From Minisyncoccota bacterium (lineage in GTDB: Bacteria > Patescibacteriota > Minisyncoccia > UBA6257): a stretch of DNA of 60,533 bases. How positions within the stretch are numbered: position 1 is the stretch's first letter; every line of letters starts with the position of its first letter. The notes under the pieces were generated by a model. The model was given only the letters and a program-made list of their open reading frames with translations. It did not search any database and had not been told where the DNA came from. Both the position numbers and the translations under genes were made by a program. The DNA lies in NCBI GenBank assembly GCA_041654015.1, contig JBAZEI010000001.1, forward strand, positions 1 to 60,533, in the 5' to 3' direction. Positions 6,627 to 59,091 of the stretch are shown piece after piece.

Positions 6627-6660
6627 TCTTTGTTTATATCCTCGTTTTTTAATTTATTAC

Positions 6661-6706: not shown

Positions 6707-9700
6707 ATGTCTCCAAGAAAAAAATTTCATAATCATTTAAAAGAGGTTAAAAAAAGGACAGGTGAAATTGTCCCTTTTGAAAAGAAAAAAATAGAAGAAG
6801 CAATTTTCAAGGCCTTAACAGCTACGGATGAAGGCGGAAAAACTTTAGCCCGAGAATTATCAAATAAAGTTATTAAAATTCTTAATAGAAGATTTAAAAA
6901 AGAAGAAATTCCGTCGGTTGAAGAAATACAAGATATTGTTGAAGAAGTTTTAATTTTAGAGAATTTAGTTGAGACCTCAAAGGCCTATATTTTATACCGA
7001 GATCAAAGAAGAAAATTAAGAGAAAGCCAGATCGTTACTGAGGAATCAGTAAGTTTAGTGGATGAATACTTAGGAGTGAATGATTGGCAAGTAAAAGAGA
7101 ACAGCAATATGGCTTTCTCTCTTCAGGGGTTGAATCACTATGTATCTGCTTATGTCGCTAAAAAATATTGGTTAAGAAAAATTTACCCTAAAGAAATAAG
7201 AGAGGCAGTTGAAGCAGGGGATTTTCATATTCATAACTTGGATATTTTAGCCACTTATTGCTGTGGCTGGGATTTATATGATTTGCTTTTGCAGGGTTTT
7301 GGAGGTGTTTTTGGAAAAATTCAGTCAAAACCGCCAAAACATTTTGGTTCTGCTTTAGGGCAGGTAGTTAATTTTTTTTATACCCTTCAGGGCGAAGGCG
7401 CCGGAGCCCAAGCCTTTTCTAATTTTGACACTTTATTAGCCCCTTTTATTCGGTATGATAGTTTAAATTATCAGGACATAAAGCAATCTTTACAGGAGTT
7501 CCTTTTTAATTGTAATGTTCCGACACGGGTCGGCTTTCAATGTATTTCAGAGGATACAGAGATATTAAGCCCAACAGGGTGGAAAAATTATCAAGAAGTA
7601 GAAGAAGGAAATATTATTACAACGTTTAATTTAAAAACAAAAGCTTTAGAAAATAAAAAAGTTAGTTATGTATTTAAAAGAAAATATCATGGAATAATGT
7701 ATCGTTTACGCAATCGGATACAAGATCAGCTTATTTCCCCAAGGCATAAAGTAGTAAGGAGAAAATTTTATAGCAATGAATATGTTTTGGAACCTATAGA
7801 AGAAATAATGAAATTAAAATCTCCTTTTATTGTACCTATTACTGGAGAGAATATAAAATCGGATGTAAAACTAAGTGATGAGCAGATTAAACTAATGGCC
7901 TGGATTATCAGTGAAGGAACAATTGAAAGAAAGTCAAAATATCGTAGTTGCCACAGAGTTTCTATATATCAATCTAAAATTAAAAACAAGAAAAATTATA
8001 AAGAAATAGTTGGTTTATTAGAGCATTTTAAGTTTAAATATTCAGAATATAATACGGCCGCTTTGGGAGATGAAGTTTGCAAATTAAGATTAAACGCTGA
8101 GAGTTCTAAAGTTATTCATAAATGGTTTGGTTCTAAAGAAAATATTCATTTTATTCCGGAAGTTTTATTTAATTTAAGCAAGGAACAATCTAGATTATTT
8201 TTAAAAACTTATTTAAAAGGTGACGGTTTTGAGGAGTCTAAAATATCAATTACAGAATTGGAGCTATTAGAAGGGTTGGAGAGGATTATTGTGAATTCCG
8301 GATACGGATTCACTGTTCTTAAAAGAAAGCCTACTATAGGGAAAAAGGATATTTATGTTTTAAGAATTATCAGACATCAGGAAACCTATATTCAAAAAAT
8401 AGAAAAAGTTAATTACAAAGGAATAATTTGGTCAGTTCATACTCAAAACGAAACGGTTATCGCTCGACGCCGAGGAAAAGTTTTTATTACCGGCAACACT
8501 CCCTTTGAAAATATCACCTTAGATTTGAAAGTACCGGCTCATTTTAAAGATTTGCCGGTAATTATTGGCGGCCAACCGCAGAAAGAAACTTACAAAGATT
8601 TCCAAAAAGAGATGGATATCTTTAACCAGGCCTTATGTGAAATTTATACAGAGGGTGATTCTAGCGGAAGGGTTTTTACTTTTCCAATTCCCACTTACAA
8701 TATTACAAAAGATTTTGATTGGAGTAACCCTAGTTATGATGGTATTTGGAAAATGACTGCAAAGTATGGAATTCCATATTTTTCCAATTTCATTAATTCT
8801 GACTTAAGCCCTGAAGACGCACGAAGTATGTGTTTGGATGCTAAAGAAGAGATTTTGATTAAAGATTTTTCCGGTATAAAGAGACGTTTAATAGGAGATG
8901 TTGTGAAAGAGTATAAGCAGGGAAATTTTGACAGAGAGGGGTGGAGCAAATGTAAAGGGGATAATGATTTAAAGGCACTATCTTTAAATTATGAGACTGG
9001 GAAAGTAGAATGGACAAATGTAAAGAATTTTTTGCGGGTGTTGGATAATCAGATGGTAGAGATCGTATCTGAAGAAGGGAAATCTATTAGAGCTTCTCAG
9101 AAACACCTTGTTCCAGTTTTAACTCAAGGAGGATTGGTTAATAGATTCGCTCAAGATATTAAAGAAGGGGACTATCTTTTAACTTATAGAAAAGGTGATA
9201 TTTTGAATAATAATTACCAAAGGATAGGAGATTTAATCCTTAATGAAGACTTAGCGAAATTTTTAGGCTATTTTACTGCTGACGGCAATTATCTTTTTGA
9301 AAATAGAAAAAATCTAAGAACCTTTGGTTACCCCAGAGGACTACAATTTACTTTTAATGCAAAAACTAAAGCTAATTTAGAGAAGATAAAAGCATTGATT
9401 AAAAATATTTTTTCTCTAAAAACGAAAGAAAAGAAAGACCCACGCTATAATTCTTACTATCTTTACATCTATAATTCTCAATTAGCTAGGAAATTATTTC
9501 AGGCAGGTTTTAAAAAATATGGTTGTTTGCCAGATATTTTGTTCAACTCGCCCCAGGCGGTTATTGAAGCATTTTTAGAGTTTCATTTTAAAGGAGATGG
9601 TTATGCAAAAAGGCAAGAGATTCATATTAATGATCCGAAATTAGCCAGGGATTTAGCAATTTTGTATTCTTTAATAGGAAAATCGGTGACTTACAGAGAA

Positions 9701-11770: not shown

Positions 11771-13198
11771 ATGGCGCTCTCTCCTTCCAGAGTTTTCCGT
11801 CAATGTGGGGCGTCTTTTTTAATAGCCGTAATTTTATCGCATTATTTCTCTTTCTCTTTTGTCTTGAGTTTGATTATTTATTCGGTAATTTATATTTTAT
11901 TTTATGGTCGGCAACTATCTTCTTTGTTGCGAAAAGAGCGGTCTATTATTTTGTTTTTGATCCTGTTGAGTTTTTCTTTAGGGCAATTTCGTTACTTCTC
12001 TTTTGTAGATGAGTTAAATAAATCAGCTGTTAAAGAAGAAAAACAAGTGGAGATAGAAGCTTCTACTGTAAGGGAGCCGATTTTAAAAACCAATTATCAA
12101 AGAATAATAATTCCCAATATAGTTATTTATACTGAAAGGTTTCCGGTTTATCAATACGGAGATACATTAAAAATTAAAGGGAAAATAGAACCATTAAAAG
12201 GATTTCGCTTTTATAATTCCACCATTGTTTCTGGCAAAATGAGTTATCCAAAAATAGAGTTAATTTCTTCTTCTAAATTTTCCTTTCAGAAAGCCGCCAT
12301 TTCTTTTAAAAACAAGACAACTCATTTGCTTCAAAAAATTATTCCTGAACCCCAGATGAGCCTCTTAAACAGTATCATGTTTGGCGGCAAGCATAATTTG
12401 ACAGATTCTTTGGAAAAAGAGATCCGAAAGTCGGGATTGTCCCATATTATTGTTGTTTCAGGTTTGCATTTATCCATTATTACTCAAATGCTTTCCAGCC
12501 TCTTGGCTGTTTTTTGCTTGGGGAATTTATTCAATTTTATTTTTTCCGGTTTATTTTTGTTAGTATTTTCCTTTATGGTTGGTTTTACTCCCTCAATTAC
12601 TCGGTCGGCAATAATGGCTTTTTTGCTGGTTTTATCCCGTTTTAATTTCCGCCTTTATAATTCTCTTAACGCTTTATTTCTCGCAGCGCTAATAATGGTT
12701 TGGTTTAATCCATTAATGCTCTTTTTAGATTTAGGTTTTCAACTTTCTTTTTTGGCGACAGCGGGCATATTATTGTTTTATCCTTTGTGGAGCCAGTCTT
12801 CTTTTTGGCAGAGAGATTTTTTGAATAATCGGGGAGCGCAAATTGTTAAGCAAACAGTGATTTCCTGTTTTTCGGCAATGGTTTTAGTTGTTCCTTGGGT
12901 GATATTTAAAACTCAGAGCATTTCTTTAGTAGCTCCTTTAACCAACATTTTGGTAGTTCCCTTGATTTCTTTAATAATAGGGGGAGGGTTTATTACTGCT
13001 CTTTGCGCGTTTATCATTTATCCTTTAGGATTATTTTTTGGGTTTTGGCTTAATTTGATAATGACTTATTTGTTGAAAGTAATTTCTTATTGCGCTAACT
13101 TACCCTTCGCCGAGATTTATATTTCTTCGAGTCTGCGTTGGCTGGTTGTTCCTTTCTATCTTCTAATTTTTCTTTATTTTCGTAAAAAGAGTCATTAG
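11771..13198 (+). CDS. comEC: ComEC/Rec2 DNA-uptake channel, membrane (competence) domain
   Basis: 475 aa polytopic membrane protein containing GLSHIIVVSGLHLSII. Confidence 0.75.
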   Translation: MALSPSRVFRQCGASFLIAVILSHYFSFSFVLSLIIYSVIYILFYGRQLSSLLRKERSIILFLILLSFSLGQFRYFSFVDELNKSAVKEEKQVEIEASTVREPILKTNYQRIIIPNIVIYTERFPVYQYGDTLKIKGKIEPLKGFRFYNSTIVSGKMSYPKIELISSSKFSFQKAAISFKNKTTHLLQKIIPEPQMSLLNSIMFGGKHNLTDSLEKEIRKSGLSHIIVVSGLHLSIITQMLSSLLAVFCLGNLFNFIFSGLFLLVFSFMVGFTPSITRSAIMAFLLVLSRFNFRLYNSLNALFLAALIMVWFNPLMLFLDLGFQLSFLATAGILLFYPLWSQSSFWQRDFLNNRGAQIVKQTVISCFSAMVLVVPWVIFKTQSISLVAPLTNILVVPLISLIIGGGFITALCAFIIYPLGLFFGFWLNLIMTYLLKVISYCANLPFAEIYISSSLRWLVVPFYLLIFLYFRKKSH

Positions 13199-13203
13199 AC
13201 CAG

Positions 13204-14052
13204 ATGCATCTTATCTCGTTGATTTATATGAAGAAACCTTTTTTATATATCTTATTGTTTCTTGTTTCTGCCAATATTTTTACTTTTTGGATTATTTTTG
13301 ATTATTTTTATCTTGATAAAGGGGAAGTAAGCTTTTTGGATATTGGCCAAGGAGATGCTGAACTCATTCAAACACGATCAGGTAATATTTTGATAGATGC
13401 CGGACCTGATATGAGCATTATTTCTGCTTTAGATTCATCTCTGCCTTTTTTTGACCAGACAATTGATTTATTTATTCTTTCTCATCCTAATAAAGACCAT
13501 TTTAATGGACTGTTTGAAGTCTTAGAGCGATACGAAGTAAGGGCGGTAATGCTTAATAATATATTTTATACTGACTCCCAATATCAAAAACTTCTTCAAA
13601 AATTGGTAAAAAAAGACATTCTAATTATTCAAGGAGTAAGAGGGGTAAAATTAACTTTTAAAGATGATAAGTTATTTGTGATTTATCCAGAGGCAATGGT
13701 TTCTTCAAGAGAAGACCCTAATAAGTTTAGTTTAGTAGTTTCTTTGGATTTGGGAGAAAATTATTTTCTTTTTTTGGGTGATATTAGCGCCAGTCAGGAA
13801 AAAGAAATCTTACCCTTATTGCCGGAAAAAAATAATAAATCAAGGATTTTAAAAGTGGCTCATCATGGTTCTCGTTATTCTTCTTCTTCGGAGTTTTTGG
13901 AAAAATTTAAGCCCCATTTTGCAGTAATTGAGGTTGGCAATAATAGTTATAGCCATCCTCATCTTGATACTCTCAGCCGTTTAACACAGATAGGGGCTGA
14001 AATTTTTCGCACAGATTTAGATGGAACAATTAGGTTTAAAGAGAAAAAGTGA
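13204..14052 (+). CDS. ComEC-type metallo-beta-lactamase domain protein (separate ORF)
   Basis: DIGQGDAELIQ, HPNKDHFNG, VAHHGS. N-terminal TM helix. The start could be the internal Met at 13231. Confidence 0.75.
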   Translation: MHLISLIYMKKPFLYILLFLVSANIFTFWIIFDYFYLDKGEVSFLDIGQGDAELIQTRSGNILIDAGPDMSIISALDSSLPFFDQTIDLFILSHPNKDHFNGLFEVLERYEVRAVMLNNIFYTDSQYQKLLQKLVKKDILIIQGVRGVKLTFKDDKLFVIYPEAMVSSREDPNKFSLVVSLDLGENYFLFLGDISASQEKEILPLLPEKNNKSRILKVAHHGSRYSSSSEFLEKFKPHFAVIEVGNNSYSHPHLDTLSRLTQIGAEIFRTDLDGTIRFKEKK

Positions 14053-14209: not shown

Positions 14210-15631
14210 ATGCGTCTTTGGATAAAAGACACCCCCCAATATCTTAATAAAACAATAACCCTTTATGGTTGGGTTGACTCCCGTCGCGACCATGGAAAGG
14301 TTATTTTTATTGATTTGCGCGACAGAACGTCTAAAGTTCAAGTGGTTTTTTCTCCCGACCGGTTAGAAACATATAAGTTGGCCCAAAAGATTCGTTCAGA
14401 ATGGGTTGTGGAAATTAAGGGTAAGGTTAATTCCCGACCCGAGAATATGCAAAATTTGAAAATATTAACTGGCAAAATAGAAATAGAGGCTGAAGAATTA
14501 AAAATAATTAGTCCGGCTCATCCTCTGCCTTTTGAAATTTCTGATGATACCAAAGCAGTTAATGAAGAAATCCGTTTAGAATATAGATATTTAGATTTGC
14601 GCTCTCAGCGCCTAAAAGAAAATTTGCTTAGCAGGCATAGAATAATAAAATTTATCAGAGATTTTCTTTCAGAGCGTGATTTTATAGAAATAGAAACTCC
14701 TATTTTAACAAAATCCACCCCAGAAGGCGCTCGGGATTATGTGGTGCCCTCCAGATTAGAGCCGGGCAAATTTTATGCTCTTCCTCAGAGTCCTCAGCAA
14801 TACAAACAGCTCTTAATGGTTGCTGGGCTTGAGAGATATTTTCAAATTGCCCGTTGTTTTCGAGATGAAGACACCCGAGGAGATAGGCAGCCTGAATTTA
14901 CTCAGTTAGATTTAGAAATGGATTTTCCCAGCCAAGAAGATATTTTAAAATTAATAGAGGGATTGTTAAAAGAATTAGTGGAAAAAATTTATCCAGAAAA
15001 GAAAATAAAAGAGTTTCCTTTTCCGAGGATTTCCTACCAAGAGGCAATGAAAAACTATAAATCTGACAGGCCTGATTTAAGGGAGGTGAATGCAAAGGGA
15101 GAAAAAGACCCCAATCAATTAGCTTTTGCTTTTGTTATTGATTTTCCTCTTTTTGAGTGGAAAAAAGAGGAAAAGAGGTGGGGAGCGGTTCATCATCCTT
15201 TTACTCGGCCTAAATTGGAACTCGGCGAAACAATTGAAGAAGCGATAAAAAGAATTAAACAAGAACCCTCTCTTCCTTTGGCAAATCAATATGATTGTGT
15301 TTTGAACGGCAATGAAATTGGCGGCGGCTCATTAAGAGTTTCAGAGCCGGAATTATTAAAAGCTGTTTTTGAAATATTAGGGCATCAGCCCAAAGAAATT
15401 ATGGAAAAATTCGGTCATCTTTTAAAAGCGTTTAAATTTGGCGTGCCTCCCCATGGAGGCATTGCCTTGGGTCTAGATAGAATAATAATGCTTTTGCAAA
15501 ATGAGTCGAGCATTCGGGAAGTTATCGCTTTTCCAAAAACCGGGGATGGCAAAGATTTAATGATGGAAGCCCCTTCACCGATAGACGATAAACAGCTTAA
15601 GGAGTTGCATCTTAAAACTTTAAATTCTTAA
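14210..15631 (+). CDS. aspS: Aspartyl-tRNA synthetase, bacterial type but lacking the GAD insertion domain
   Basis: OB-fold N-terminus, motif 2 FRDEDTRGDRQPEFTQLDLEM, motif 3 GGIALGLDRIIM. Only 473 aa. Confidence 0.9.
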   Translation: MRLWIKDTPQYLNKTITLYGWVDSRRDHGKVIFIDLRDRTSKVQVVFSPDRLETYKLAQKIRSEWVVEIKGKVNSRPENMQNLKILTGKIEIEAEELKIISPAHPLPFEISDDTKAVNEEIRLEYRYLDLRSQRLKENLLSRHRIIKFIRDFLSERDFIEIETPILTKSTPEGARDYVVPSRLEPGKFYALPQSPQQYKQLLMVAGLERYFQIARCFRDEDTRGDRQPEFTQLDLEMDFPSQEDILKLIEGLLKELVEKIYPEKKIKEFPFPRISYQEAMKNYKSDRPDLREVNAKGEKDPNQLAFAFVIDFPLFEWKKEEKRWGAVHHPFTRPKLELGETIEEAIKRIKQEPSLPLANQYDCVLNGNEIGGGSLRVSEPELLKAVFEILGHQPKEIMEKFGHLLKAFKFGVPPHGGIALGLDRIIMLLQNESSIREVIAFPKTGDGKDLMMEAPSPIDDKQLKELHLKTLNS

Positions 15632-17903: not shown

Positions 17904-18263
17904 ATGCAACAAATAATAACAGAAAGCTTAATGACGAATTTTTGGCTGCTTGCTTTATTCCTTACTTGGAGCTTAATTTGGAAAGGATTGGCATTGTGGA
18001 AAGCGGCAAGAAATGAACATAGATGGTGGTTTATCGCTTTGTTGATTATAAATACAGCAGGCCTTTTAGAAATAATTTATATTTTCTTTTTTAGTAAAAA
18101 GAAAGAGTTTGTAGAAAAGAAGCCCTCCGCCGCTTCCACCTCCGCTAAAGCTTCGGTGGATAAAAAAGCTATGGAGGATAAGCCCTCCTCTGCTTCCACC
18201 TCCGCTAAAGCTTCGGTGGATAAAAAAGCTATGGAGGACAAGGAAGAAACAATAAAAGAATAG
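17904..18263 (+). CDS. Small membrane protein (DUF5652-like) with a repeat-encoded C-terminal tail
   Basis: Two TM helices (LWKAARNEHRWWFIALLIINTAGLLEIIYIFFF). The tail contains two 20-aa repeats, PS.ASTSAKASVDKKAMEDK. Confidence 0.55.
   Translation: MQQIITESLMTNFWLLALFLTWSLIWKGLALWKAARNEHRWWFIALLIINTAGLLEIIYIFFFSKKKEFVEKKPSAASTSAKASVDKKAMEDKPSSASTSAKASVDKKAMEDKEETIKE
18121..18240 (+). repeat. Tandem 2 x 60-nt in-frame repeat related to the 'CGCTAAAGCT' hairpin family
   Basis: Units 18121..18180 and 18181..18240 differ at 3 positions. Each contains tccacctccgctaaagcttcggtgga...gctatggagga. Confidence 0.9.
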
Positions 18264-19578: not shown

Positions 19579-19606
19579 TTGACATTCATTTTAGATTTGC
19601 TATACT
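19579..19606 (+). promoter_or_regulatory. Sigma-70-like promoter TTGACA-16 nt-TATACT
   Basis: ttgacattcattttagatttgctatact. Confidence 0.65.
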
Positions 19607-19612
19607 CTCCTT

Positions 19613-19693
19613 GGTGTTATTTTTAAGCCGCAAGGCCTATAAATAACACCATTGCTGTCGTTTTTGGCTTGCCAAAGGCGGCAGCATTTTTTT
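19613..19693 (+). ncRNA. Candidate ~80-nt small RNA, copy 1
   Basis: Lies downstream of its own promoter. Hairpin 1 is GGUGUUAUUU..GCC-GCAA-GGC..AAAUAACACC (GNRA loop). Hairpin 2 is UGCUGUCG..UUGGC-UUG-GCCAA..CGGCAGCA followed by U7, which looks like an intrinsic terminator. No ORF. Confidence 0.45.
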
Positions 19694-19705
19694 ATATTAA
19701 AACAT

Positions 19706-24143: not shown

Positions 24144-24171
24144 TTGACATTCATTTTAGATTTGCTATACT
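24144..24171 (+). promoter_or_regulatory. Sigma-70-like promoter TTGACA-16 nt-TATACT (regenerated by the TSD)
   Basis: Identical to 19579..19606. Confidence 0.6.
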
Positions 24172-24177
24172 ACTTCT

Positions 24178-24258
24178 GGTGTTATTTCTAAGCCGCAAGG
24201 CCTATAAATAACACCATTGCTGTCGTTTTTGGCTTGCCAAAGGCGGCAGCATTTTTTT
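24178..24258 (+). ncRNA. Candidate ~80-nt small RNA, copy 2
   Basis: Same two hairpins and U-tract as 19613..19693. The differences cluster in the first ~10 nt. Confidence 0.45.
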
Positions 24259-24416
24259 ATTATTAATAATTATTAATGAGGATAATTAATGAGGTCGGAC
24301 CTCGTTAATTATTTTAGAAAAAGTTAATTTATATATTTTCTTATTTTTTCATATATTTTCTTTTTTCAATTGTTTCTGGTATGATATGAACGCGGAAAAT
24401 AAATTGTTTTAACTAA

Positions 24417-35260: not shown

Positions 35261-36090
35261 TTAAAATATATAAACCAACAACACCGGCAAGACGTCATTA
35301 TACAGTAAGCGATTACTCGGTTTTAACAAAAGACAATCCTTTTAAAAAATTAACTACTTTAAAGAGGAGAAATTTAGGCAGATCTAAAGGAAGAATAACA
35401 GTCCGACATAAAGGCGGCGGCAATAAAAAACTTTATCGCAGTATTTTTTTTGGTGAAGAAAAGAAAGGCATTCCTGGTGTAGTGAGGACTATTGAATATG
35501 ATCCTAACCGCTCTTCATTTATTTCTTTAATAGCTTATAAAGATGGAGCCTGGGGCTACATCTTGGCTCCTCAAGGATTAAAAGTTGGCGAGATAATCAT
35601 TTGTGACGAGAAAACTCCTTTGAAAGAAGGCAATAGGATGATGCTTAAAAACATTCCAGTCGGTTCCTTTGTCCATAATATTGAGGTAAAAGCAGGCGCT
35701 GGAGGAAAATTAATAAAATCCGCTGGATCTTCTGCTCAGGTATTGGCTCAAGATGGCAAAGACACTCATTTGAAGATGCCTTCTTCTGAAGTCAGAATTA
35801 TTCCCAATATTTATTATGCATCAGTAGGCCAGCTTTCTAATGTTGAACATAAGATGGTATCTTTAGGTAAGGCTGGACGCTCTCGCTATATGGGAAGAAG
35901 GCCAAAAGTAAGGGGATCTGCGATGAATCCAGTTGACCATCCTTATGGAGGCGGAGAAGGAAGAACAAAAAGAGGCACTAGAAAGCCGAAGAGTATTTAT
36001 GGTAAAGTAACCGGAGGAAAGAAAACAAGAAAGAAAAAAAGATATTCAGATAAATTCATTATAACAAGACGAAAGAAGAAGCGTCGATAA
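35257..36090 (+). CDS. rplB: 50S ribosomal protein L2
   Basis: [12 protein letters not shown] and [15 protein letters not shown]. Confidence 0.95.
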
Positions 36091-36124
36091 TTCTTCATTC
36101 ATAATTCATAATTCTATATTAAAT

Positions 36125-39125: not shown

Positions 39126-39202
39126 ACTTTGTTTTAAACATTTAATCATTGAAAATTCATTAAAAATTTAAAATTGGAAATTAAAAATTAGTTTTCATTA
39201 GT

Positions 39203-40260: not shown

Positions 40261-40308
40261 ATGGCAAATAACAATTTAACAATATAACAATTTAGCAATT
40301 TATATTCT

Positions 40309-45402: not shown

Positions 45403-45770
45403 GGAAGAATCTCTCGTTTTCTTTTGTCATTCTGAGCGGAGCGAAGAATCCCTCGCGAATGCGAGAATCACACTAACAACAAGGAGAACAGTTCTCCTGT
45501 GTTCTATAATAAAATTTACGACGTCGGACGTCCCAAAATTCTTTGTCCTTTTGAGTGTAGCCTTCGCCTTCGCTAAAGCTACGCTGGACAAGCCCGCCTT
45601 CGCCAGCGCCTGAAGCCGCAGGCTATGGCGGGCAAGGAAGAATCTCTCGTTTTCTTCTGTCATTCTGAGCGAAGCGAAGAATCTCTCGCGAATGCGAGGA
45701 TCACATTAATAACAAGGAGAACAGTTCTCCTGTGTTTCATATCCCTCGCGAATGCGAGAAATTCACTTTG
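45403..45770. repeat. Composite array of GC-rich repeat modules (X1 - spacer/Y - X2 - partial X)
   Basis: X1 (45403..45503) and X2 (45636..45736) are ~101-nt near-identical direct repeats: ..tgtcattctgagcgRagcgaagaatc.ctcgcgaatgcgag..aggagaacagttctcctgtgtt. Y (45553..45642) matches 6460..6545. A third ctcgcgaatgcgag lies at 45745..45758. Confidence 0.9.
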
Positions 45771-48485: not shown

Positions 48486-49724
48486 ATGACTTTAAAACCT
48501 TTTGATTCGGCAGATTTTAGCCGAAAAAAAGTTTTAATGAGAGTGGATTTTAATGTCCCTTTGAAACAAAATAAAATTCTGGATGATTTTAGGATTCAAC
48601 GCACCTTGCCAACAATCAATTTTTTAAAAGAAAAGAAAGCAGAGAAAATTATCCTTATTTCTCATTTTGGTCGTCCCTTAAAAAGAGACCCAAAGTTTAG
48701 TTTAGAGCCGATTAGTCGGCATTTAGAAAAGATTATTGGAGAGACAATTTATTTTTTGAAAACGCCGATTGGCAGCCAGCTTTCAGAAGAAATTGAAAAA
48801 TTGCCAAATAATTGCATAATTCTTTTGGAGAATATCCGTTTTTATGAGGAAGAAGAAAAAAATGATAAAAATTTTGCCAAAGAATTAGCGAAAATGGGGG
48901 ATTGTTTTATAAACGAAGCTTTTTCTGCTTCCCATCACGAAGCAGCTTCTTTATGCGCGATTACAGAATTTTTACCCTCTTTTATGGGCAAATTGCTTGA
49001 AGAAGAAATATCGCAGCTGAATAGAATTATTAAAACTCCCAAAAGGCCATTGGTAATAGTTTTAGGGGGCTCTAAAGTAAAAGACAAATTACCTGTGGTT
49101 AAAAGGTTTTTAGAACAGGCAGATTATGTTTTATTGGGAGGAGTAGTCGCCGATACAGTTTTGAAAGCCAATGATTTTTCCATAGGTTCTTCTATTTTTG
49201 ATAGAGAGATATTAGATGCAGCAAAAAATTTGGGTTCCCAAAAGGCAGAATTAATTTTACCCGGCGATTTTAGGGTTTTAAACAAAGACAACAAAAAGCA
49301 AATAAAAGAATTGGGATTAATCACTAATAAAGATGTTATTTTTGATATTGGGCCGCTTGCTGCCAAAACCTTTGCTCAGATTATTTCAAAAGCAAAAACA
49401 ATATTTTTTAACGGCGCGATGGGTAAATTTGAAGACCCGAGATTTAGCGATGGCACTAAAGAAATCATAGAGGCTATTATAAACAATCAGAAAGCTCAAA
49501 CAGTTATTGGCGGCGGCGATACTTTATTAGCTTTTAAAATTCTAAAACCAGAATACAGAATACCCGCTCGCCTTGCTCCCGCCTGCTTCGAATTGCGAAG
49601 CGAATCGGGCAGGTCGCAGTGCGAAGCGGGCAGGCAGAATACAGGATACAGATTTTTTTCCACTGGTGGTGGAGCAATGTTGGAGTATTTGGCTGGAAAA
49701 TCACTCCCCGGTTTAACAATATAA
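48486..49724 (+). CDS. pgk: Phosphoglycerate kinase carrying an in-frame GC-rich insertion near the C-terminus
   Basis: RVDFNVP, ISHFGRP, GGSKVKDK, VIGGGDT, STGGGAMLEYL.GK.LPG. Start is ATG 48486 (the track start is TTG 48477). Confidence 0.92.
   Translation: MTLKPFDSADFSRKKVLMRVDFNVPLKQNKILDDFRIQRTLPTINFLKEKKAEKIILISHFGRPLKRDPKFSLEPISRHLEKIIGETIYFLKTPIGSQLSEEIEKLPNNCIILLENIRFYEEEEKNDKNFAKELAKMGDCFINEAFSASHHEAASLCAITEFLPSFMGKLLEEEISQLNRIIKTPKRPLVIVLGGSKVKDKLPVVKRFLEQADYVLLGGVVADTVLKANDFSIGSSIFDREILDAAKNLGSQKAELILPGDFRVLNKDNKKQIKELGLITNKDVIFDIGPLAAKTFAQIISKAKTIFFNGAMGKFEDPRFSDGTKEIIEAIINNQKAQTVIGGGDTLLAFKILKPEYRIPARLAPACFELRSESGRSQCEAGRQNTGYRFFSTGGGAMLEYLAGKSLPGLTI
49548..49652 (+). repeat. 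~105-nt GC-rich element inserted in frame in pgk
   Basis: Encodes PEYRIPARLAPACFELRSESGRSQCEAGRQNTGYR between GGGDT..FKILK and FFSTGGGA. Flanked by CAGAATACAGAATAC / CAGAATACAGGATAC. The 14-mer gcgaagcgggcagg is the reverse complement of lepA 55531..55544. Confidence 0.8.
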
Positions 49725-49744
49725 CAATTTAGCAATGTAACAAG

Positions 49745-50578
49745 ATGATTGTTTTTTATCATAAAAATTGCCCTGATGGATTTGCTAGTGCTTGGGTTGC
49801 CTGGAAGAAATTTAAAGCCAAGGGCCAGTATTTTCCTTTAAATTATCAATCTCCTTTTAAGCATTTTATCCAGAAGGAGAAAATTTATTTTTTTGATGTT
49901 ATTCCTGAAAGAAAAACTTTGGAAGATTTAATTGAAAAAGGAAACGAAATTACAATAATTGACCATCACCTAAGCGCTAAAAGAATTTTGGATTTTGATA
50001 AGCCAAAAAATATGAAAGTGAAGTTGAATATGAAACATTCCGCTTCAGTTTTGGTTTGGCGGTATTTTTTTTCTAAAAAGAAAGTTCCAGAATTATTACT
50101 CTATATAGAGAATATGGACCTCTGGAAATTTAAGAAACCTTATACTCGGGAAATTTTAGCAACGATTAATACGCCGGATTTTGAGTTTAAAAAATGGAGT
50201 AAGTTGGTTAAAGAAATAGAAAATAAAAAAACAAGAAAGAAATATATTGAAGCTGGAAAAAAAGTTGTTGAATATCAAGATGAAATAATAGCAGGATTGG
50301 TTCAGGAAGCTAAAGAAGTGGAATTTTCAAAATGCAAGACTTTAGTTGTTAACTCATCAATTTTAATTTCTGAAATAGGCGACGCTTTAATCAAAAAAAG
50401 GCCTCCAATGGCTGTTATTTGGTTTGAGACAGGCGAAGAAAAAAGAATTTCTCTGCGTTCTAATGGCAAGATAGATGTTTCTAAAATTGCGGAAAAGTAT
50501 GGCGGTGGAGGCCACAAAAAAGCAGCCGGATTCAGTTTAAAAGCCAATAGACCTTTTCCCTGGAAGGAATATTTTTAA
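49745..50578 (+). CDS. DHH/DHHA1 family phosphoesterase
   Basis: ITIIDHH and YGGGGHKKAAGF. Confidence 0.7.
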   Translation: MIVFYHKNCPDGFASAWVAWKKFKAKGQYFPLNYQSPFKHFIQKEKIYFFDVIPERKTLEDLIEKGNEITIIDHHLSAKRILDFDKPKNMKVKLNMKHSASVLVWRYFFSKKKVPELLLYIENMDLWKFKKPYTREILATINTPDFEFKKWSKLVKEIENKKTRKKYIEAGKKVVEYQDEIIAGLVQEAKEVEFSKCKTLVVNSSILISEIGDALIKKRPPMAVIWFETGEEKRISLRSNGKIDVSKIAEKYGGGGHKKAAGFSLKANRPFPWKEYF

Positions 50579-51102: not shown

Positions 51103-51762
51103 AACTGGTTAAACCTATAAGCCGAATTCTGTATCCAGCCCTTTTGAATAAATATAACGTTCTTTTACTTACAATATATTAACTTACTAATATAAATAAG
51201 TATTACTTGTTATATTCACTCAAAAGGGCTGGACGGCAGTCATTTATCTAGCCCTAATGTCGCCATCAGGGTCAAGCGGTTACTCTGCCAAAATTACTCG
51301 TAGCGAAGCAAGGTTATAATTTTGAGCATCCGCCATAGCTCAGTAAGCGACGGCGGACCCGCTTTTGCTAAAGCTCCAGCGGGCTCTCAATTTTATAACC
51401 GTTCGCCTAACTCACGGATAAAATTGGAGCACGAACCTTGCACCCAGTAAGGATTTAGCCGTTTCATCGTAGCCTTCGGCGAAGATCCACCATAGCTCGA
51501 AGAGCGAAGGTGGATAACCTTATAACTACGCTCGCCCTCCTTCGCATAAAGCTACGGAGGGCGTCTCGTGCCTTTCAGCACTCGACGTCTCTGTTCGCAC
51601 CTCTACCCATCTCTTTTTGTAAAAAGGGATGGGCGACAGCTGTTAGCTGCTACCTTTTTAACTCTGTTAAATAAAATTTAACAGAGTGGGAGTTCGGACT
51701 TTCCTCCCCGCTCTTTTAATTTAGGTTAAAAGGGCGGGGCGGCTGCCCAGTTCAACCAGCAG
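51103..51762 (-). ncRNA. rnpB: RNase P RNA (bacterial type A core) with large expansion segments, ~660 nt
   Basis: Minus strand carries GGAGGAAAGUCCGAAC (51707..51692), P8-like CAGC-UAAC-AGCUG, GUGCGAACAGAGA, AGAUAAAUGACUGCC and ACAGAAUUCGGCUUAU. P1 pairs CUGGUUGAAC (51759..51750) with GUUUAACCAG (51114..51105). Confidence 0.85.
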
Positions 51763-55306: not shown

Positions 55307-57231
55307 CAATATTCGTAACTTCGTCATTATTGCCCATATTGATCATGGAAAGTCTACTTTGGCTGATAGGTTTTTGGAATTGACAAAGACGATTTCGAAA
55401 AATAAATTAAGTCCCCAATACTTAGACAGAATGGATTTAGAAAAAGAACACGGCATTACTATTAAGATGCACCCGGTTCAAATGCTCTATCAGGCAAAAA
55501 CCCTAAATCCTAAATCCGAAATTCTAAACACCTGCCCGCTTCGCTTTGCGAAGCAAAGCAGGCGGGAATCCCAAATCCAAAATTCTAAATCCCAGAAAAA
55601 TAATTTAGAATTTAGCGCTTCGGATTTAGAGTTTTCAAATTCAGAATATATTTTGAACTTGATAGATACTCCGGGGCATGTTGATTTTACTTATGAAGTT
55701 TCTCGCGCCTTGGCTGCAGTTGAAGGAGCCGTGCTTTTGGTAGACGGAACTCAGGGTATCCAGGCGCAAACTCTTTCTAATCTTATGTTAGCTCAAAAAC
55801 AGGGTCTTAAAATTATCGGCGCTATTAATAAAATAGATTTAGAAATTCCTGATTTAGAACAAAAAAGAAAAGAGTTGGCTGATTTGTTAAAGGTTGATAA
55901 AAAAGAGATAGTTCTTTTATCGGCAAAAACAGGAGAAAATGTGGATCTTCTGCTTCAAAAAATTGTAATTGAAATTCCCAGTCCAAAAATTAAAAATGAG
56001 CTTCCTTTTCGGGCTTTGGTATTTGACTCTCATTATGATGATTATAAAGGGATTATTGCTTATTTAAGGGTTATTGAAGGAGAAGTCGCCAAAGGAGAAA
56101 AAATTAATTTTGTTATCAGCGGCGCAAAAGGAAGCGCTGTTAATTTGGGTTATTTTGCTCCGGAATTAAAGCCAAAAGATAGATTAAAATCAGGGGAAAT
56201 TGGCTGGATTGCAACAGGGTTAAAAGATTTAAATTTAGTTCGAGTCGGAGACACAATAGCCAAATCATTAAACATAGAACCTTTGCCGGGCTATAAAGAA
56301 CCAAAACCAGTGGTTTTTGCCGGTTTTTATTTAGCCAAAGGCAAAGCAGATTCAGGTTTAAGTAAAGGCGATAAGGATTTTGAGCATTTTCGTCATTCTT
56401 TATATCAATTAAAATTGAACGATTCGGCTTTATATTTTACTCCAGAAAGCTCTGAAGCTTTGGGCCGGGGTTATCGTTTAGGGTTTTTAGGGATGCTTCA
56501 TTTAGAAATTACTCAGGAAAGATTAAAAAAAGAATACGGTTTGGATTTAATCATTACTCAACCAACAGTGCCTTATAAAGTTTTACTCAAAGGCAACAAA
56601 GAAAAAATTATTACCAATCCCAGCGAATGGCCTTCCCTCAATGAAATTATTGGCTATGAAGAACCTTGGGTAAATATGGAGATTATTACAATGCCCCAGT
56701 ATTTATCCAATATAATGAAGCTAATAAATGGCTCGCGGGGCGAAAATATCAATACTTTTACTTTTGCCGAAAGATTGATTATAAAATGCGAGATACCTTT
56801 GGAGGAGGTAATTAAAGATTTTTACGATAATTTAAAATCTGTTTCTTCTGGTTACGCCTCTTTGAGCTACGAAATCTCGGGATATAAGCCGACAGAATTG
56901 GAAAAGTTAGAAGTAGTTTTGGCGGGAAAACAATTTGAAAGTTTGTCGCGGATAGTTTTTAGAGATAAAATAGAAAAGGAAGCGAGAAGAGGTTTTGCCT
57001 CGCCAAAATTACGCTATCCCGATACAGATAAAAGGGATGGGTAGGATTATTGCCCGGGAAACAGTGCCTGCTTTGAAAAAAGATGTTACGGGTTATCTTT
57101 ATGGCGGGGACAGAACCAGAAAAATGAAACTTTGGAAAAAACAGGCAAAAGGGAAGAAAAAACTTTTAGAAGAAGCAGATTTAGAGATTCCTTCAGAAGT
57201 TTTCTTAAAAATATTCCCTTCTTCCCGTTAA
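55299..57231 (+). CDS. lepA: Elongation factor 4 (LepA), with an in-frame insertion in the G domain and an apparent +1 frameshift near the 3' end
   Basis: IRNFVIIAHIDHGKSTL, NLIDTPGHVDF, INKIDL. The conserved C-terminus LPRQNYAIPIQ..IIARETV..YGGD.TRK.KL..KQ..GKK continues in the next frame (track ORF 56995..57231). The frames switch at the T4 run 56993..56996. Confidence 0.88.
55497..55646 (+). repeat. ~150-nt palindromic element inserted in frame in lepA
   Basis: Encodes KTLNPKSEILNTCPLRFAKQSRRESQIQNSKSQKNNLEFSASDLEFSNSE, where E. coli LepA has about 5 residues. Outer inverted repeat ctaaatccgaaattctaaa (55510..55528) / tttagaattt..cggatttag (55604..55629). GC core with GCTTCGC..GCGAAGC hairpin at 55531..55566. 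Confidence 0.8.
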
Positions 57232-57763: not shown

Positions 57764-57895
57764 TCCCCACACCAAACGAGTATTACTTGCGAGATTAGTA
57801 TAGTGGTAGTATATCACCTTCCCAAGGTGAGGGCGCCGGTTCGATTCCGGTATCTCGCTCAACTTAGAATTTAAAATATCGTTATGGTGTGGGGA
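57764..57895. mobile_element. TIR element E2 (TCCCCACACC...GGTGTGGGGA), TSD CAAG, whose cargo is the intact tRNA-Gly 'C'
   Basis: Arms 57764..57788 and 57860..57895. Shares CCAAACG / CGTTATGG and AACTTAGAA with the tuf-promoter element. Confidence 0.75.
57789..57859 (+). tRNA. tRNA-Gly (anticodon CCC), intact copy 'C'
   Basis: Hand-folded. Acceptor GCGAGAT/ATCTCGC, D arm GTAT-AGTGGTA-GTAT, anticodon arm TCACC-UUCCCAA-GGTGA, 4-nt variable loop, T arm GCCGG-TTCGATT-CCGGT. No encoded CCA. Confidence 0.88.
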
Positions 57896-58002
57896 CAAGG
57901 TTAAAGCGTGGGTTCGATTCCCATTGTCCGCTCAAAATATAAGTAATCCTTCTTATGGTGTGGGGGCAAGGTGAGGGCGCCGGTTCGATTCCGGTATCTC
58001 GC

Positions 58003-59091
58003 TCAGATAATTTTTCCGCCCCCTAAACATTTATCTTTTTGATAAAAAACAGCGAATTGGCCCGGGCAGGGGGCAAAAACCGGTTTTGAAAAAACAATTT
58101 TTAATTTTCTTTTTTCCGGAATTATAATAGCTGATGCAGGTTTTTGCTGGTAGCGAATACTCACTTGGGCTTTAAAAGGTTTTGATAGTTTTTTTCCAGA
58201 AATAAAGTGATGAGGAAAAACAAAGATTTCTTTTTTAAAGAGATCTTTTTTATTTTTACTCACTAAAAGAGCGTTTTTCTTTTTGTCAAAGCCGACAACA
58301 AAATAAGGGCCGCCGGAAAGTTTGATCCCTTTTCTTTGGCCAATGGTAAAAAAATGCAATCCTTGGTGTTGGGATAAAATATTTTTTTGAGTGTCAATTA
58401 TTAAACCTTGTTTTTTACCAATTTTTTGTTCCAAAAAAGGGCAAAGAGACTGGCCGGCAATAAAACAAAAATCCTTACTTTCTTCTATTTTGCTAAAGAA
58501 TTTCAGCCCCTGTTTTTTTGCTATTTGATAAATTTCTTTTTTAGAGTAATCACCGAGAGGAAAAATGATATGTTTGAGCCATTTTTGAGGCAAAAAACAG
58601 AGATTATAAGTTTGATCTTTATTTTTATCTTCGGCTTTTAATAACTCATACTGCTTTGTTTTAGAATTAAATTTCAGTCTTGCATAGTGGCCAGTCGCAA
58701 TATATTCAATCTTATGTTTTTTTGCCCAAGCGATTAATTGTTTAAACTTGAAATTAGGATTGCAAATAACGCAAGGATTGGGGGTTCTTAAATTTTTCCA
58801 TTCGTTAATAAAATACCCAACAACTTGTTTTTTAAAATCTTTTTTCGCGTCCACAATATGATGAGGGATACCTAACTTTTTACAAACCTTAGCTGCTACT
58901 TCTAGAGATTGTTTTTTTACAAGACGGGCATTTGCTTTTGAAAAATTGGTTTTATCCTCCCAAATAGGCAATTCTAAAGAAAGGCCGATCGGCTGCCAGC
59001 CTTCTTGTTTTAATAGTATTAAAGCGGCCGAGGAATCTACTCCTCCGGACATACCAACAACAATTTTTTGGCCCTTAATATTTTTTGACAT
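58003..59091 (-). CDS. mnmA: tRNA-specific 2-thiouridylase MnmA
   Basis: PP-loop VGMSGGVDSS, PNPCVICN, ATGHYAR. Confidence 0.9.
   Translation of the reverse strand: MSKNIKGQKIVVGMSGGVDSSAALILLKQEGWQPIGLSLELPIWEDKTNFSKANARLVKKQSLEVAAKVCKKLGIPHHIVDAKKDFKKQVVGYFINEWKNLRTPNPCVICNPNFKFKQLIAWAKKHKIEYIATGHYARLKFNSKTKQYELLKAEDKNKDQTYNLCFLPQKWLKHIIFPLGDYSKKEIYQIAKKQGLKFFSKIEESKDFCFIAGQSLCPFLEQKIGKKQGLIIDTQKNILSQHQGLHFFTIGQRKGIKLSGGPYFVVGFDKKKNALLVSKNKKDLFKKEIFVFPHHFISGKKLSKPFKAQVSIRYQQKPASAIIIPEKRKLKIVFSKPVFAPCPGQFAVFYQKDKCLGGGKII

What the first reader, a model, noticed from the sequence alone, without database searches (positions are those of the whole stretch)
49548..49652. GC-rich element inserted in frame into phosphoglycerate kinase between GGGDT and STGGGA
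The conserved C-terminal domain reads ..VIGGGDTLLAFKILK-[PEYRIPARLAPACFELRSESGRSQCEAGRQNTGYR]-FFSTGGGAMLEYLAGK... The bracketed ~35 codons are conspicuously GC-rich in an AT-rich gene and contain the hairpin GCTTCG-aattg-CGAAGC. They are bordered by direct repeats CAGAATACAGAATAC / CAGAATACAGGATAC. They also carry a 14-mer (gcgaagcgggcagg) that is the exact reverse complement of part of the lepA insertion. The frame is kept and there is no stop. This parallels the Rickettsia palindromic elements, which insert in frame into protein-coding genes and are translated as surface loops.
Basis: partly seen in the sequence, partly recalled or inferred. Interest (0 to 1): 0.65.

Follow-up and report, generated by a model that had tools for sequence, protein, structure and literature searches.

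The report
36-nt hairpin repeat inside Pgk gene
The phosphoglycerate kinase gene of this ultra-small (CPR) bacterium carries, in frame, two nested copies of a 36-base GC-rich hairpin repeat that also sits inside many other essential genes of related bacteria, much like the Rickettsia palindromic elements but far smaller and apparently undescribed.

Summary
Alignment with 120 Pgk homologues puts the true insert at window 49563-49634 (72 nt, 24 codons, 68% GC in a 35% GC genome). The flanking "direct repeats" are CAGAATA heptamer units that orthologues lacking the insert also have, so they are not target-site duplications. The 72 nt are one 36-nt unit (E36) nested in the apical loop of another. 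A third copy lies in lepA. One pattern scan found E36 in at least 120 metagenome contigs (80 distinct sites), nearly invariant. It lies in both orientations and all three phases inside FolD, TsaD, AspRS, GatA, DnaG, MetRS, L3, SMC and others. It adds exactly 36 nt with no duplication. It favours junctions between heptamer repeats and tips of longer hairpins. Insert history is uncoupled from gene history: a Pgk with 71% nt identity shares 68/72 insert bases, while one with 98% identity carries a divergent 24-nt form. AlphaFold models a confident Pgk fold with the insert as its only disordered loop. The mobilising mechanism is unknown and translation is inferred. Verdict: a new variant of a known kind.

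The parts
48486..49724 (+). pgk (phosphoglycerate kinase) host gene. ATG at 48486, with an alternative TTG at 48477.
   Evidence: Pfam PGK 1.5e-116. PDB Pgk chains at 1e-76 and weaker. 120 CPR homologues.
49549..49562 (+). Two CAGAATA heptamer units left of the insert. They encode part of PEYRI and are present in orthologues without the insert.
   Evidence: TRF period 7. Empty-site allele L001 reads CAGAATA CAAAATA | CAGAATA CAGAGTA.
49563..49634 (+). The true insert: 72 nt, 24 codons (PARLAPACFELRSESGRSQCEAGR), 68% GC. It is a composite of two nested E36 units.
   Evidence: Gap against 111 of 120 homologues. Codon-level comparison. Folds as a hairpin: DNA -19.8 kcal/mol (z -2.0), RNA -36.5 kcal/mol (z -2.4). 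AF2 pLDDT below 50 at residues 358-382.
49563..49577 (+). 5' half (positions 1-15) of the outer E36 unit, CCCGCTCGCCTTGCT.
   Evidence: Outer halves joined match the E36 consensus at 33/36 positions (consensus; comparison by reading). L106 and L002 have the same split.
49578..49613 (+). Complete inner E36 unit (GAATCGGG sub-variant), inserted in the apical loop of the outer unit.
   Evidence: Exact match to the E36 pattern. nhmmer 35.2 bits, E 2.5e-8. Identical 36/36 to the inner unit of L106.
49614..49634 (+). 3' half (positions 16-36) of the outer E36 unit, TCGCAGTGCGAAGCGGGCAGG. It holds the 14-mer shared with lepA.
   Evidence: nhmmer aligns it to model positions 16-36. 14-mer match.
49635..49652 (+). 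Heptamer units right of the insert (CAGAATA CAGGATA CAGA), encoding QNTGYR.
55531..55566 (-). Third E36 copy of the window, in lepA, antisense to the gene. It is translated as CPLRFAKQSRRE and is absent from four LepA orthologues.
   Evidence: nhmmer 46 bits, E 1.1e-11. L001, L089, L090 and L091 lack it.
55497..55635 (+). lepA variable segment around the E36 copy: heptamer arrays 55498-55528 and 55567-55592, and an inverted arm 55604-55635.
   Evidence: TRF. Inverted repeat I22. Comparison with orthologues.

Best explanation
The GC-rich block in pgk is selfish repeat DNA, not an ancestral part of the enzyme.

Anatomy. It consists of two copies of a 36-nt GC-rich imperfect-palindrome repeat, here called E36 (consensus CCCGCCCGCCTTGCTTCGCAACGCGAAGCGGGCAGG). 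One copy is nested in the apical loop of the other. The pair lies between units of a (CAGAATA)n heptamer array that encodes a surface loop of Pgk, between helix 344-353 and strand 389-391.

The family. E36 is a dispersed, non-autonomous repeat of a subset of CPR/Patescibacteria. It adds exactly its own length (36 nt, 12 codons) with no target-site duplication. It lands in either orientation and in any codon phase. It favours YC^CAA junctions between heptamer repeats and the tips of existing hairpins, including its own loop.

Why it persists in genes. Its length is a multiple of three and it has no stop codon in any frame. Copies that land in tolerant loops of essential genes therefore survive and are read through as extra peptide. 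In Pgk this is a 24-residue disordered loop.

What is shown: the anatomy, the family, the absence of a duplication, the nesting, the site preferences, and the uncoupling of insert history from gene history.

What is inferred: (a) the insert is translated, not removed; (b) how it spreads. My preferred reading of (b) is that the pgk copy arrived as a ready-made nested 72-mer, copied from another E36-bearing (CAGAATA)n array by short-homology template switching or gene conversion. Primary jumps to new sites would be made by an unidentified trans-acting enzyme working on single-stranded hairpin DNA (HUH/Y1-type, as for REP and IS200/IS605).
For: Insert defined.
- Empty site in L001 (85% aa identity): AAA ATA|CAG AAT.
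- 72-nt form in the window and L002, 24-nt form in L003/L004, 18-nt form in L089-L091.

Family.
- No real hit in 1.2 Mb of other CPR genomes, none in 2.9 M viral contigs, none in phage or plasmid records.

Hosts.
- Pfam places E36 inside FolD, Mur ligases, TsaD (7 loci, at least 4 sites), AspRS, DinB, GT2, GatA, CCA-adding enzyme, RNase HII, P-type ATPase, L3, SMC, DnaG, MetRS.
- Orientation and phase counts: s0 15, s1 7, s2 7, a0 6, a1 6, a2 8.

No duplication.
- AspRS in L105 against window 14210-15631 differs by exactly +36 nt.
- The pgk heptamer count is unchanged between filled and empty alleles.
- Only 20 of 80 sites have a 7-nt flanking repeat, and those sit in arrays.

Nesting and hairpin tips.
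- Window, L002, L106 and L147 show nesting.
- Inverted flanks at 15 of 80 sites against 3.9 expected.

Uncoupled history.
- Window against L002: 71.3% nt identity outside the insert and 68/72 inside (P 8.5e-7).
- Window against L003: 97.9% outside but 18/24 inside (P 8e-6).

Same composite elsewhere.
- L106 carries (CAGAATA)n-E72-(CAGAATA)n upstream of a pilin-like gene, with an inner unit identical 36/36.

Structure and frame.
- E36 hairpin: DNA -12.1 kcal/mol (z -2.6), RNA -19.4 kcal/mol (z -2.9).
- AF2 mean pLDDT 88.8; the only segment below 50 is 358-382.
- All in-gene length variants are multiples of 3: 18, 21, 24, 36, 72.
Against: - No transposase or other mobilising gene was identified. 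Window ORFs 301-25124 are ordinary housekeeping genes, and only fragments of other genomes were available.
- No transcript or peptide data, so translation of the insert is unproven.
- The near-invariance of E36 is partly ascertainment, because the scan fixed 25 of 36 positions. The 11 free positions are nevertheless also nearly constant.
- The same-site recurrence in pgk and TsaD could partly reflect old insertions with repeated precise loss. The NJ tree used is crude.
- Local flanks of the pgk insert are themselves fairly conserved between the window and L002 (121/150 nt). The contrast with the insert is therefore strong against the whole gene but modest against the immediate flanks.
Confidence: 0.8

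Rival explanations
1. Ancestral, lineage-specific Pgk loop. The segment is simply a variable surface loop inherited vertically, with no mobile DNA involved.
For: The loop between GGGD and STGGG varies in length among the Pgk homologues (17-46 residues). Nine of 120 homologues have some insert at exactly this site.
Against: The identical 36-mer occurs at 80 or more unrelated sites and in about 20 other protein families. Composition is 68% GC against 35% for the genome. Distribution on the Pgk tree is patchy. Insert divergence is uncoupled from gene divergence in both directions.
Confidence: 0.02
2. Assembly or chimera artefact: the GC-rich block was spliced in by mis-assembly.
For: The window's exact Pgk protein is not on record in the gene index, so this very allele has no independent replicate.
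Against: Independent assemblies from other samples carry the same nested 72-mer at the same pgk site (L002, Logan SRR24635347) and elsewhere (L106, JGI). Shorter variants lie at the same site in L003/L004, L089, L090 and L091. The frame is always preserved.
Confidence: 0.02
3. Intervening sequence not present in the protein. The hairpin would be cut out of the mRNA (an intron-like or RNase-plus-ligase event) or bypassed by the ribosome, as for GC-cluster 'byps' in Magnusiomyces mitochondria.
For: The RNA hairpin is very stable (-36.5 kcal/mol for the 72-mer). GC clusters inserted in yeast mitochondrial genes can be bypassed in translation (PMC8811140). The near-palindrome would look alike in either orientation.
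Against: All coding-region variants are multiples of three (18, 21, 24, 36, 72) and stop-free, which removal or bypass would not require. No Rfam family matches. The insert is far too short for group I or II introns or inteins. It sits in a loop where extra residues are tolerated.
Confidence: 0.06
4. Local de novo palindrome. Replication slippage or template switching within the heptamer array generated and expanded a GC hairpin in situ (18, then 36, then 72 nt), with no movement between loci.
For: The size series 18/24/36/72 occurs at one site. L090 has the 18-mer duplicated one heptamer further on, with the same private G-to-A change in both copies, which points to a local copying event. Heptamer arrays are slippage-prone and hugely over-represented.
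Against: This cannot explain the same 36-mer at 80 unrelated sites, some without any heptamers (AspRS). It also cannot explain the identical inner unit in L106 at a different locus. Local copying probably adds to the dynamics but is not the origin.
Confidence: 0.04
5. Uptake-sequence-like drive. E36 is kept invariant and spread between lineages because the competence machinery (ComEC is in the window) or another DNA-binding system prefers DNA that carries it. Alleles with E36 would replace empty alleles by homologous recombination.
For: E36 is near-invariant across hosts whose TsaD or Pgk are 50-70% identical. The same site is filled or empty patchily among relatives. There is no duplication. 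ComEC lies at 11771-14052.
Against: Homologous replacement between lineages at about 71% nt identity is unlikely, and the flanks of the window and L002 inserts are not unusually identical. This does not explain how a 36-mer first enters a new site, nor the nesting in hairpin loops. No uptake data exist for CPR.
Confidence: 0.08

Closest known systems
Rickettsia palindromic elements (RPE; Ogata et al. 2000, as listed in PMC3184786)
   Same: GC-richer palindromic repeats in a small AT-rich genome. They insert in frame inside many housekeeping genes without destroying them. They lie in both genic and intergenic places, and their mobilising enzyme is unknown.
   Different: RPEs are about 105-146 bp, whereas E36 is 36 nt. 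The phyla differ (Alphaproteobacteria against CPR). Sequence relatedness to RPEs was not tested. E36 is nearly invariant across deeply diverged hosts, nests in its own loop, and is tied to heptamer arrays. The last three contrasts rest partly on my own knowledge of RPEs.
GC clusters of yeast mitochondrial genomes (var1 in-frame insertions; PMC8811140)
   Same: Short GC-rich palindromic clusters in a very AT-rich genome. They cause polymorphic in-frame insertions in a coding gene (var1) and insert into loop regions of other clusters. They are linked to gene conversion and recombination.
   Different: They are organellar. GC clusters usually carry AG/TAG terminal repeats read as target duplications, and E36 has none. 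GC-cluster sequences vary widely among yeast mitogenomes, whereas E36 is nearly constant. In some yeasts GC clusters are bypassed in translation.
REP / REPIN elements and their RAYT transposases (PMC3116915, PMC3733652)
   Same: Imperfect GC-rich palindromes of 20-40 nt in high copy, often clustered or nested. No target duplication. Thought to move as single-stranded hairpins through a trans-acting HUH/Y1 enzyme.
   Different: REPs are extragenic and carry a GTAG or CGTC tag. About half of the E36 copies sampled lie in long open frames, 25 of them inside recognised protein families, and E36 has neither tag. No RAYT gene was found here, but the search was very limited.
Small dispersed repeats (SDR, 21-27 nt) of Nostoc-type cyanobacteria (Elhai et al. 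2008, Genome Res 18:1484; from my own memory, paper not retrievable) and cyanobacterial heptamer STRR repeats
   Same: Very small, highly conserved dispersed repeats that can nest in one another. They occur in genomes rich in tandem heptanucleotide repeats.
   Different: Different phylum and sequences. Details of SDR target sites and in-frame behaviour could not be checked here.
Bacterial MITEs (Correia, RUP, Nezha etc.; PMC3184786, PMC10969869)
   Same: Non-autonomous small repeats with inverted ends, sometimes fused in frame to ORFs.
   Different: As I know them, MITEs are typically about 100-400 bp with terminal inverted repeats derived from an IS and a target-site duplication. E36 is 36 nt with no duplication and no known parent IS.

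Membership tests
Rickettsia palindromic elements (RPE) | Length about 105-146 bp; repeat families of the genus Rickettsia | tested here: not met
   The unit is 36 nt and the pgk composite 72 nt. The nearest named relative of the host is Candidatus Pacebacteria, a CPR lineage. RPE size taken from PMC3184786.
Rickettsia palindromic elements (RPE) | Palindromic sequence predicted to form a stable hairpin | tested here: met
   E36: DNA -12.1 kcal/mol (z -2.6), RNA -19.4 kcal/mol (z -2.9). 72-mer: RNA -36.5 kcal/mol (z -2.4).
Rickettsia palindromic elements (RPE) | Inserted in frame inside protein-coding genes, leaving the ORF intact, at many different genes | tested here: met
   Pgk, LepA, and Pfam-confirmed hosts in 25 of the 30 ORFs tested.
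Rickettsia palindromic elements (RPE) | Insert lies in a loop of the host protein, away from the fold core | tested here: met
   Prediction only. In the AF2 model of the window Pgk the insert is the only segment with pLDDT below 50 (358-382), between helix 344-353 and strand 389-391. Not tested for other hosts.
Rickettsia palindromic elements (RPE) | Insert is transcribed and translated with the host protein | not testable with these tools
   Only indirect support: all coding variants are multiples of three and stop-free.
REP / REPIN-RAYT | 20-40 nt imperfect GC-rich palindrome present in many copies | tested here: met
   36 nt, 75% GC, 125 copies in 120 contigs.
REP / REPIN-RAYT | Extragenic location | tested here: not met
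   49 unique copies lie in stop-free spans of 200 codons or more. 25 of the 30 spans tested by Pfam are recognised proteins, and in most of them the element sits within or between domain matches.
REP / REPIN-RAYT | GTAG or CGTC tetranucleotide tag at one end (PMC3733652) | tested here: not met
   The E36 consensus contains none of GTAG, CGTC, CTAC or GACG (sequence, read directly).
REP / REPIN-RAYT | A RAYT (Y1/HUH transposase) gene in the same genome, often flanked by the repeats | tested here: inconclusive
   None among window ORFs 301-25124 or in the annotated relatives' loci. Whole genomes were not available.
MITE | Target-site duplication flanking the element | tested here: not met
   AspRS filled against empty differs by exactly +36 nt. 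The pgk heptamer number is unchanged. 60 of 80 sites have no 7-nt flanking repeat, and no other repeat length scores.
Yeast mitochondrial GC clusters | Short GC-rich palindrome in an AT-rich genome, polymorphic in-frame insertion in a gene, insertion into loops of other clusters | tested here: met
   Features taken from PMC8811140. This is an analogy of behaviour only; common descent is not implied.
Yeast mitochondrial GC clusters | Terminal AG/TAG repeats regarded as target-site duplication | tested here: not met
   No such terminal repeats at E36 junctions.
Intein / self-splicing intron / known structured RNA | Splicing domains (intein) or a group I/II intron or other Rfam covariance-model match | tested here: not met
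   The insert is 24 aa. Pfam finds only PGK. Rfam finds nothing at gathering score in the window and nothing at E of 1 or better over 49400-49800 except a chance snoRNA hit.

The most novel reading that the evidence does not exclude
E36, together with the heptamer arrays it lives in, may be a previously undescribed class of ultra-small mobile DNA. It is 36 nt, has no target duplication, and is aimed at hairpin tips and heptamer-repeat junctions. It is kept almost invariant across deeply diverged CPR lineages. That would imply a dedicated, conserved trans-acting machinery, or an uptake or recombination drive, that has not been identified. It would also make such elements a major source of lineage-specific loops in the essential proteins of CPR bacteria.
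Probability: 0.3. Interest if true: 0.85.

Novelty: new variant of a known kind. Interest (0 to 1): 0.66.

Why it matters
CPR/Patescibacteria have tiny, gene-dense genomes, so a selfish repeat can hardly avoid genes. E36 shows one way round that: a 12-codon, stop-free hairpin that settles in tolerant loops of essential enzymes.

- It explains some of the odd insertions seen in CPR housekeeping proteins. Here that covers Pgk, LepA and, in related contigs, TsaD, AspRS and L3.
- It warns annotators and structure modellers that such loops are repeat DNA.
- It offers a clean system for the old question of how REP-like or RPE-like hairpins move. The system has a 36-nt unit, clear filled and empty alleles, nesting, and defined target preferences.
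- Its near-invariance across divergent hosts makes it a handy marker for this clade.
- The link with massively over-represented heptamer repeats is itself unexplained.

Tried and rejected
1. Direct repeats as target-site duplication: rejected. The empty allele L001 already has all four heptamers, and filled alleles differ only by the insert length.
2. Obligatory 7-bp duplication for the family: rejected. Only 20 of 80 sites have a 7-nt flanking repeat, and AspRS shows a clean +36 nt.
3. Heptamer arrays as footprints made by E36: unlikely. Only 27 of 229 period-7 arrays adjoin an E36, and arrays have many unrelated units.
4. Protein-level census with a six-frame peptide composite of the insert: nothing scored. 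One search was wasted.
5. The genome-contig scan with the Pgk alignment returned mostly distant CPR and other phyla. None carried E36.
6. A loose two-arm pattern gave only chance hits in GC-rich viral contigs, so a stricter 25-position pattern was used for the one metagenome scan.
7. Phage records, plasmid records and IMG/VR: no E36.
8. Rfam: no family.
9. Exact look-up of the window's own Pgk: not on record.
10. Literature: the sequence strings are not in the held library, and no CPR paper describing such an element was found. Elhai et al. 2008 could not be opened.
11. Stop-freeness of E36 as evidence of design: rejected, because 37% of shuffles are also stop-free.
Full report

The ORF 48486-49724 (+) is phosphoglycerate kinase (Pfam PF00162, E 1.5e-116). 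It aligns to solved Pgk structures on both sides of a gap: query 9-350 and 388-410 against 1vpe.
- Composition: 58% GC in the 100-nt window 49550-49649, against 25-45% in the windows covering the rest of the gene and 34.8% for the whole 60.5-kb window.
- Hairpin: GCTTCG/aattg/CGAAGC at 49585-49601.
- Direct repeats: CAGAATACAGAATAC at 49549 and CAGAATACAGGATAC at 49635.
- 14-mer: GCGAAGCGGGCAGG at 49621-49634, with an exact reverse complement at 55531-55544 in lepA. That is 3 matches at up to 2 mismatches where 0.21 are expected, and none of 100 shuffles reaches 3.

**2. Where the insert begins and ends**

A search gave 120 close Pgk homologues. All those named are CPR: Candidatus Pacebacteria, Paceibacterota, Minisyncoccia. 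Alignment and codon-level comparison of fetched loci show an allelic series at one exact position.
- L001 (85% aa identity) is empty: ...CCA GAA TAC AAA ATA | CAG AAT ACA GAG TAC AGA...
- The window and L002 carry 72 nt there.
- L003/L004 (97% aa identity) carry 24 nt (CTCACCCGCCGCGAAGCGGGTAGG).
- L089 and L091 carry 18 nt (CCCGCCTGCGCGGGCAGG and a variant).
- L090 carries the 18-mer twice, the second copy one heptamer further on and in another frame (RLRGQA). P0099 has an insert only at that second position (LRGQAD).

The true insert is therefore window 49563-49634 (24 codons, PARLAPACFELRSESGRSQCEAGR). That array has the same number of units in filled and empty alleles. They are not target-site duplications.

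**3. What the 72 nt are**

They are two 36-nt units, one inside the other.
- Outer unit: CCCGCTCGCCTTGCT | TCGCAGTGCGAAGCGGGCAGG.
- Inner unit: CCCGCCTGCTTCGAATTGCGAAGCGAATCGGGCAGG (49578-49613).
- The lepA copy (55531-55566, minus strand) is a third unit.

I derived a 25-position pattern from these three units. The held loci contain 125 copies at 80 distinct flank contexts. The dominant sequence is CCCGCCCGCCTTGCTTCGCAA[C/A/T]GCGAAGCGGGCAGG. The 11 positions the pattern left free are also nearly constant. The outer pgk unit matches this consensus at 33/36 positions.

I call the unit E36. A profile built from it finds no real copy in 1.2 Mb of other CPR genome loci. It is absent from 2.9 million viral contigs and from phage and plasmid records. 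It matches no Rfam family. It folds as a hairpin as DNA (-12.1 kcal/mol, z -2.6) and as RNA (-19.4 kcal/mol, z -2.9).

**4. Where E36 sits**

Forty-nine unique copies lie in stop-free spans of 200 codons or more. Pfam scans of 30 such spans identified 25 as ordinary conserved proteins, in most cases with E36 inside or between the domain matches:
- FolD, MurD- and MurC-type ligases, MiaA, DinB, a GT2 glycosyltransferase
- TsaD (seven loci, at least four sites)
- class II AspRS, GatA (two loci), CCA-adding enzyme, RNase HII
- a heparinase II/III-like protein, a P-type ATPase, ribosomal protein L3, SMC, DnaG, MetRS, and a large intein-containing protein

Both orientations and all three phases occur (sense 15/7/7, antisense 6/6/8). 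The translated peptides are PARLASQREAGR, PPALLRNAKRAG, RPPCFATRSGQ, PARFALRSKAGG, LPASRCEARRAG and CPLRVAKQGGRG.

The AspRS case gives a second clean filled/empty pair. The window's own AspRS (14210-15631) lacks the element, and L105 has exactly 36 extra bases with no duplicated flank and no heptamers.

**5. Target preferences**
- Flanks show a lag-7 periodicity and the consensus CAAWTYC | E36 | CAAATYC.
- The seven bases on each side match perfectly at 11 sites and with one mismatch at 9 more, out of 80. Shuffled partners give 2.9. No other repeat length scores.
- These repeats reflect insertion between units of tandem heptamer arrays, not a duplication, because 60 of 80 sites lack them.
- Fifteen of 80 sites have inverted flanks, so E36 crowns a longer hairpin there (3.9 expected).
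- Several copies are nested in or abut other E36-like units: the window, L002, L106, L147, L205.
- Hairpins with the same arms (CCCGCCTGC...GCGGGCAGG) but other centres or no centre (18-35 nt) also exist.

**6. Is it mobile, or an old loop?**
- Window against L002: the genes are 67% (aa) and 71.3% (nt) identical, and 54.7% at third codon positions. The inserts are 68/72 identical and 21/24 at third positions (P 8.5e-7 and 7e-4).
- Window against L003: the genes are 97.9% nt identical, but the aligned insert bases are only 18/24 identical and differ by 48 nt in length (P about 8e-6).
- On a distance tree of the 120 Pgk sequences, filled sites are scattered among empty ones.
- TsaD behaves the same way. 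Four lineages with 52-56% identical proteins share E36 at one loop, while a 79%-identical relative of one of them lacks it.
- L106 carries the same nested 72-mer, with an inner unit identical 36/36, inside a (CAGAATA)n array upstream of a pilin-like gene and not in pgk.
- (CAGAATA)n arrays with E36 also occur in TsaD, GatA and the CCA-adding enzyme.

The pgk insert is therefore a member of a moving family. It probably arrived as a preformed composite.

**7. Effect on Pgk**

AlphaFold2 with a 113-sequence alignment gives a confident Pgk fold (mean pLDDT 88.8, pTM 0.86). The one segment below pLDDT 50 is residues 358-382, which is the insert (residues 360-383). It lies between helix 344-353 and strand 389-391, that is between the GGGD and STGGG motifs. 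All coding-region variants (18, 21, 24, 36, 72 nt) are multiples of three and stop-free. That fits translation as a tolerated loop. Stop-freeness alone is unremarkable for such GC-rich DNA (37% of shuffles of the 36-mer).

**8. Mechanism**

Shown: no duplication, an exact unit length, either orientation, a preference for heptamer junctions and hairpin apices, nesting, and history uncoupled from the host gene.

Inferred: primary movement by an unidentified trans-acting enzyme acting on hairpin ssDNA, by analogy with REP/RAYT and IS200/IS605, which also leave no duplication. Secondary spread would occur between arrays of the same heptamer by short-homology copying. The identical composite in pgk and in L106 fits this, as does the 18-mer in L090 copied one unit along with its private mutation.

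No transposase was seen in the window ORFs examined. ComEC is present, so an uptake or recombination drive remains a minor alternative.

**9. Comparison with known systems**

E36 behaves like three known kinds of element:
- Rickettsia palindromic elements, which are in-frame hairpin repeats in housekeeping genes of 105-146 bp (PMC3184786).
- Yeast mitochondrial GC clusters, which cause in-frame var1 insertions, insert into loops of other clusters and are linked to gene conversion (PMC8811140).
- REP/REPIN elements, in size and hairpin form.

It fails the defining features of each family. It has the wrong size and host for an RPE. It is not extragenic and has no GTAG/CGTC tag, so it is not a REP. 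It has no duplication, so it is not a MITE or a GC cluster. I found no description of this sequence or of such an element in CPR bacteria in the searchable literature. That does not prove none exists.

**10. Verdict**

The finding is real and the RPE analogy is apt. The boundaries and the meaning of the direct repeats needed correcting. The element belongs to a widespread, apparently undescribed 36-nt family, a new variant of a known kind.

Noticed in passing
window 6658-6701, 36087-36114, 39159-39190, 55498-55592; loci L092-L211: Tandem heptanucleotide arrays are about 5-10 times commoner than period-6 or period-8 arrays. There are 279 per Mb in E36 contigs, 126 per Mb in close relatives and 71 per Mb in other CPR loci. 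Units are very diverse, and arrays often occur as inverted pairs that form AT-rich hairpins. Only 27 of 229 adjoin an E36.
   Followed up: partly
Pgk loop, window 49533-49660 and homologues P0001-P0120: The Pgk loop between GGGD and STGGG looks like a heptamer array in many of the 120 homologues, but of different kinds. PEYKIQNTEYR is confirmed as (CAGAATA)n at DNA level. The other common form, NSKFQIPNS, back-translates to (CAAATTC)n but I did not check its DNA. The two forms are patchily distributed on the tree.
   Followed up: partly
window 56980-57230 (lepA 3' part): Relative to L001 the window lacks 20 nt near 56987. This shifts the lepA frame, so the ORF stops at 57044. The conserved downstream DNA, which in L001 belongs to lepA, continues to about 57230. 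This is a pseudogene, a real variant or an assembly error.
   Followed up: no
window 55497-55635: The lepA variable segment is layered. L089 and L090 have nothing there, L001 has (CTCAAAA)x4, and L091 has an AT-rich heptamer palindrome. The window has heptamer arms plus the E36 core plus an inverted arm.
   Followed up: partly
window 19579-19695 and 24144-24260: A 117-nt unit is present twice (95% identical). It has a TTGACA-17-TATACT promoter-like start, two hairpins and a T-run, so it looks like a duplicated small-RNA gene. No Rfam match.
   Followed up: no
window 6447-6545 = 45544-45642; 45403-45508 = 45636-45741; 51321-51391; 51524-51601: Other GC-rich intergenic repeat families are present. 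One contains an E36-like armed hairpin (CCCGCC...GGCGGGCAAG, 6496-6539 and 45593-45636). Another has the TGTCATTCTGAGCG...AGCGAAGAATC motif.
   Followed up: no
window 18120-18239: A tandem 60-nt GC-rich unit (2 copies, 95% identical) forms the C-terminal tail (KPSAASTSAKASVDKKAMED x2) of a DUF5652 protein. This is another repeat read through in frame.
   Followed up: no
window 57789-58005: tRNA-Gly(CCC) is followed by two further copies of its 3' half (57896-57934 at 72% identity, 57967-58005 at 100%; TRF period 71). Neither ARAGORN nor Rfam calls them as tRNAs.
   Followed up: no
window 6707-10987: The anaerobic ribonucleotide reductase NrdD (1426 aa) is interrupted by an intein with a LAGLIDADG domain.
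   Followed up: no
homologues P0014, P0034, P0080, P0089, P0096, P0097, P0114, P0085, P0079: Other in-frame inserts of repeat-like sequence lie at other Pgk positions. Examples are RPALTRRG repeats after residue 91, HFERSEKKGSAEQGE... after residue 88, and WGPSEAWEGGGRVGV and LLVQAD in the same loop. In-frame repeat insertion therefore seems general in this clade.
   Followed up: no
window 49712-49743 and 40267-40302: An 8-nt periodic TAACAATA-type repeat lies just downstream of pgk and again at 40.3 kb (96% identical over 28 nt). Its meaning is unknown.
   Followed up: no
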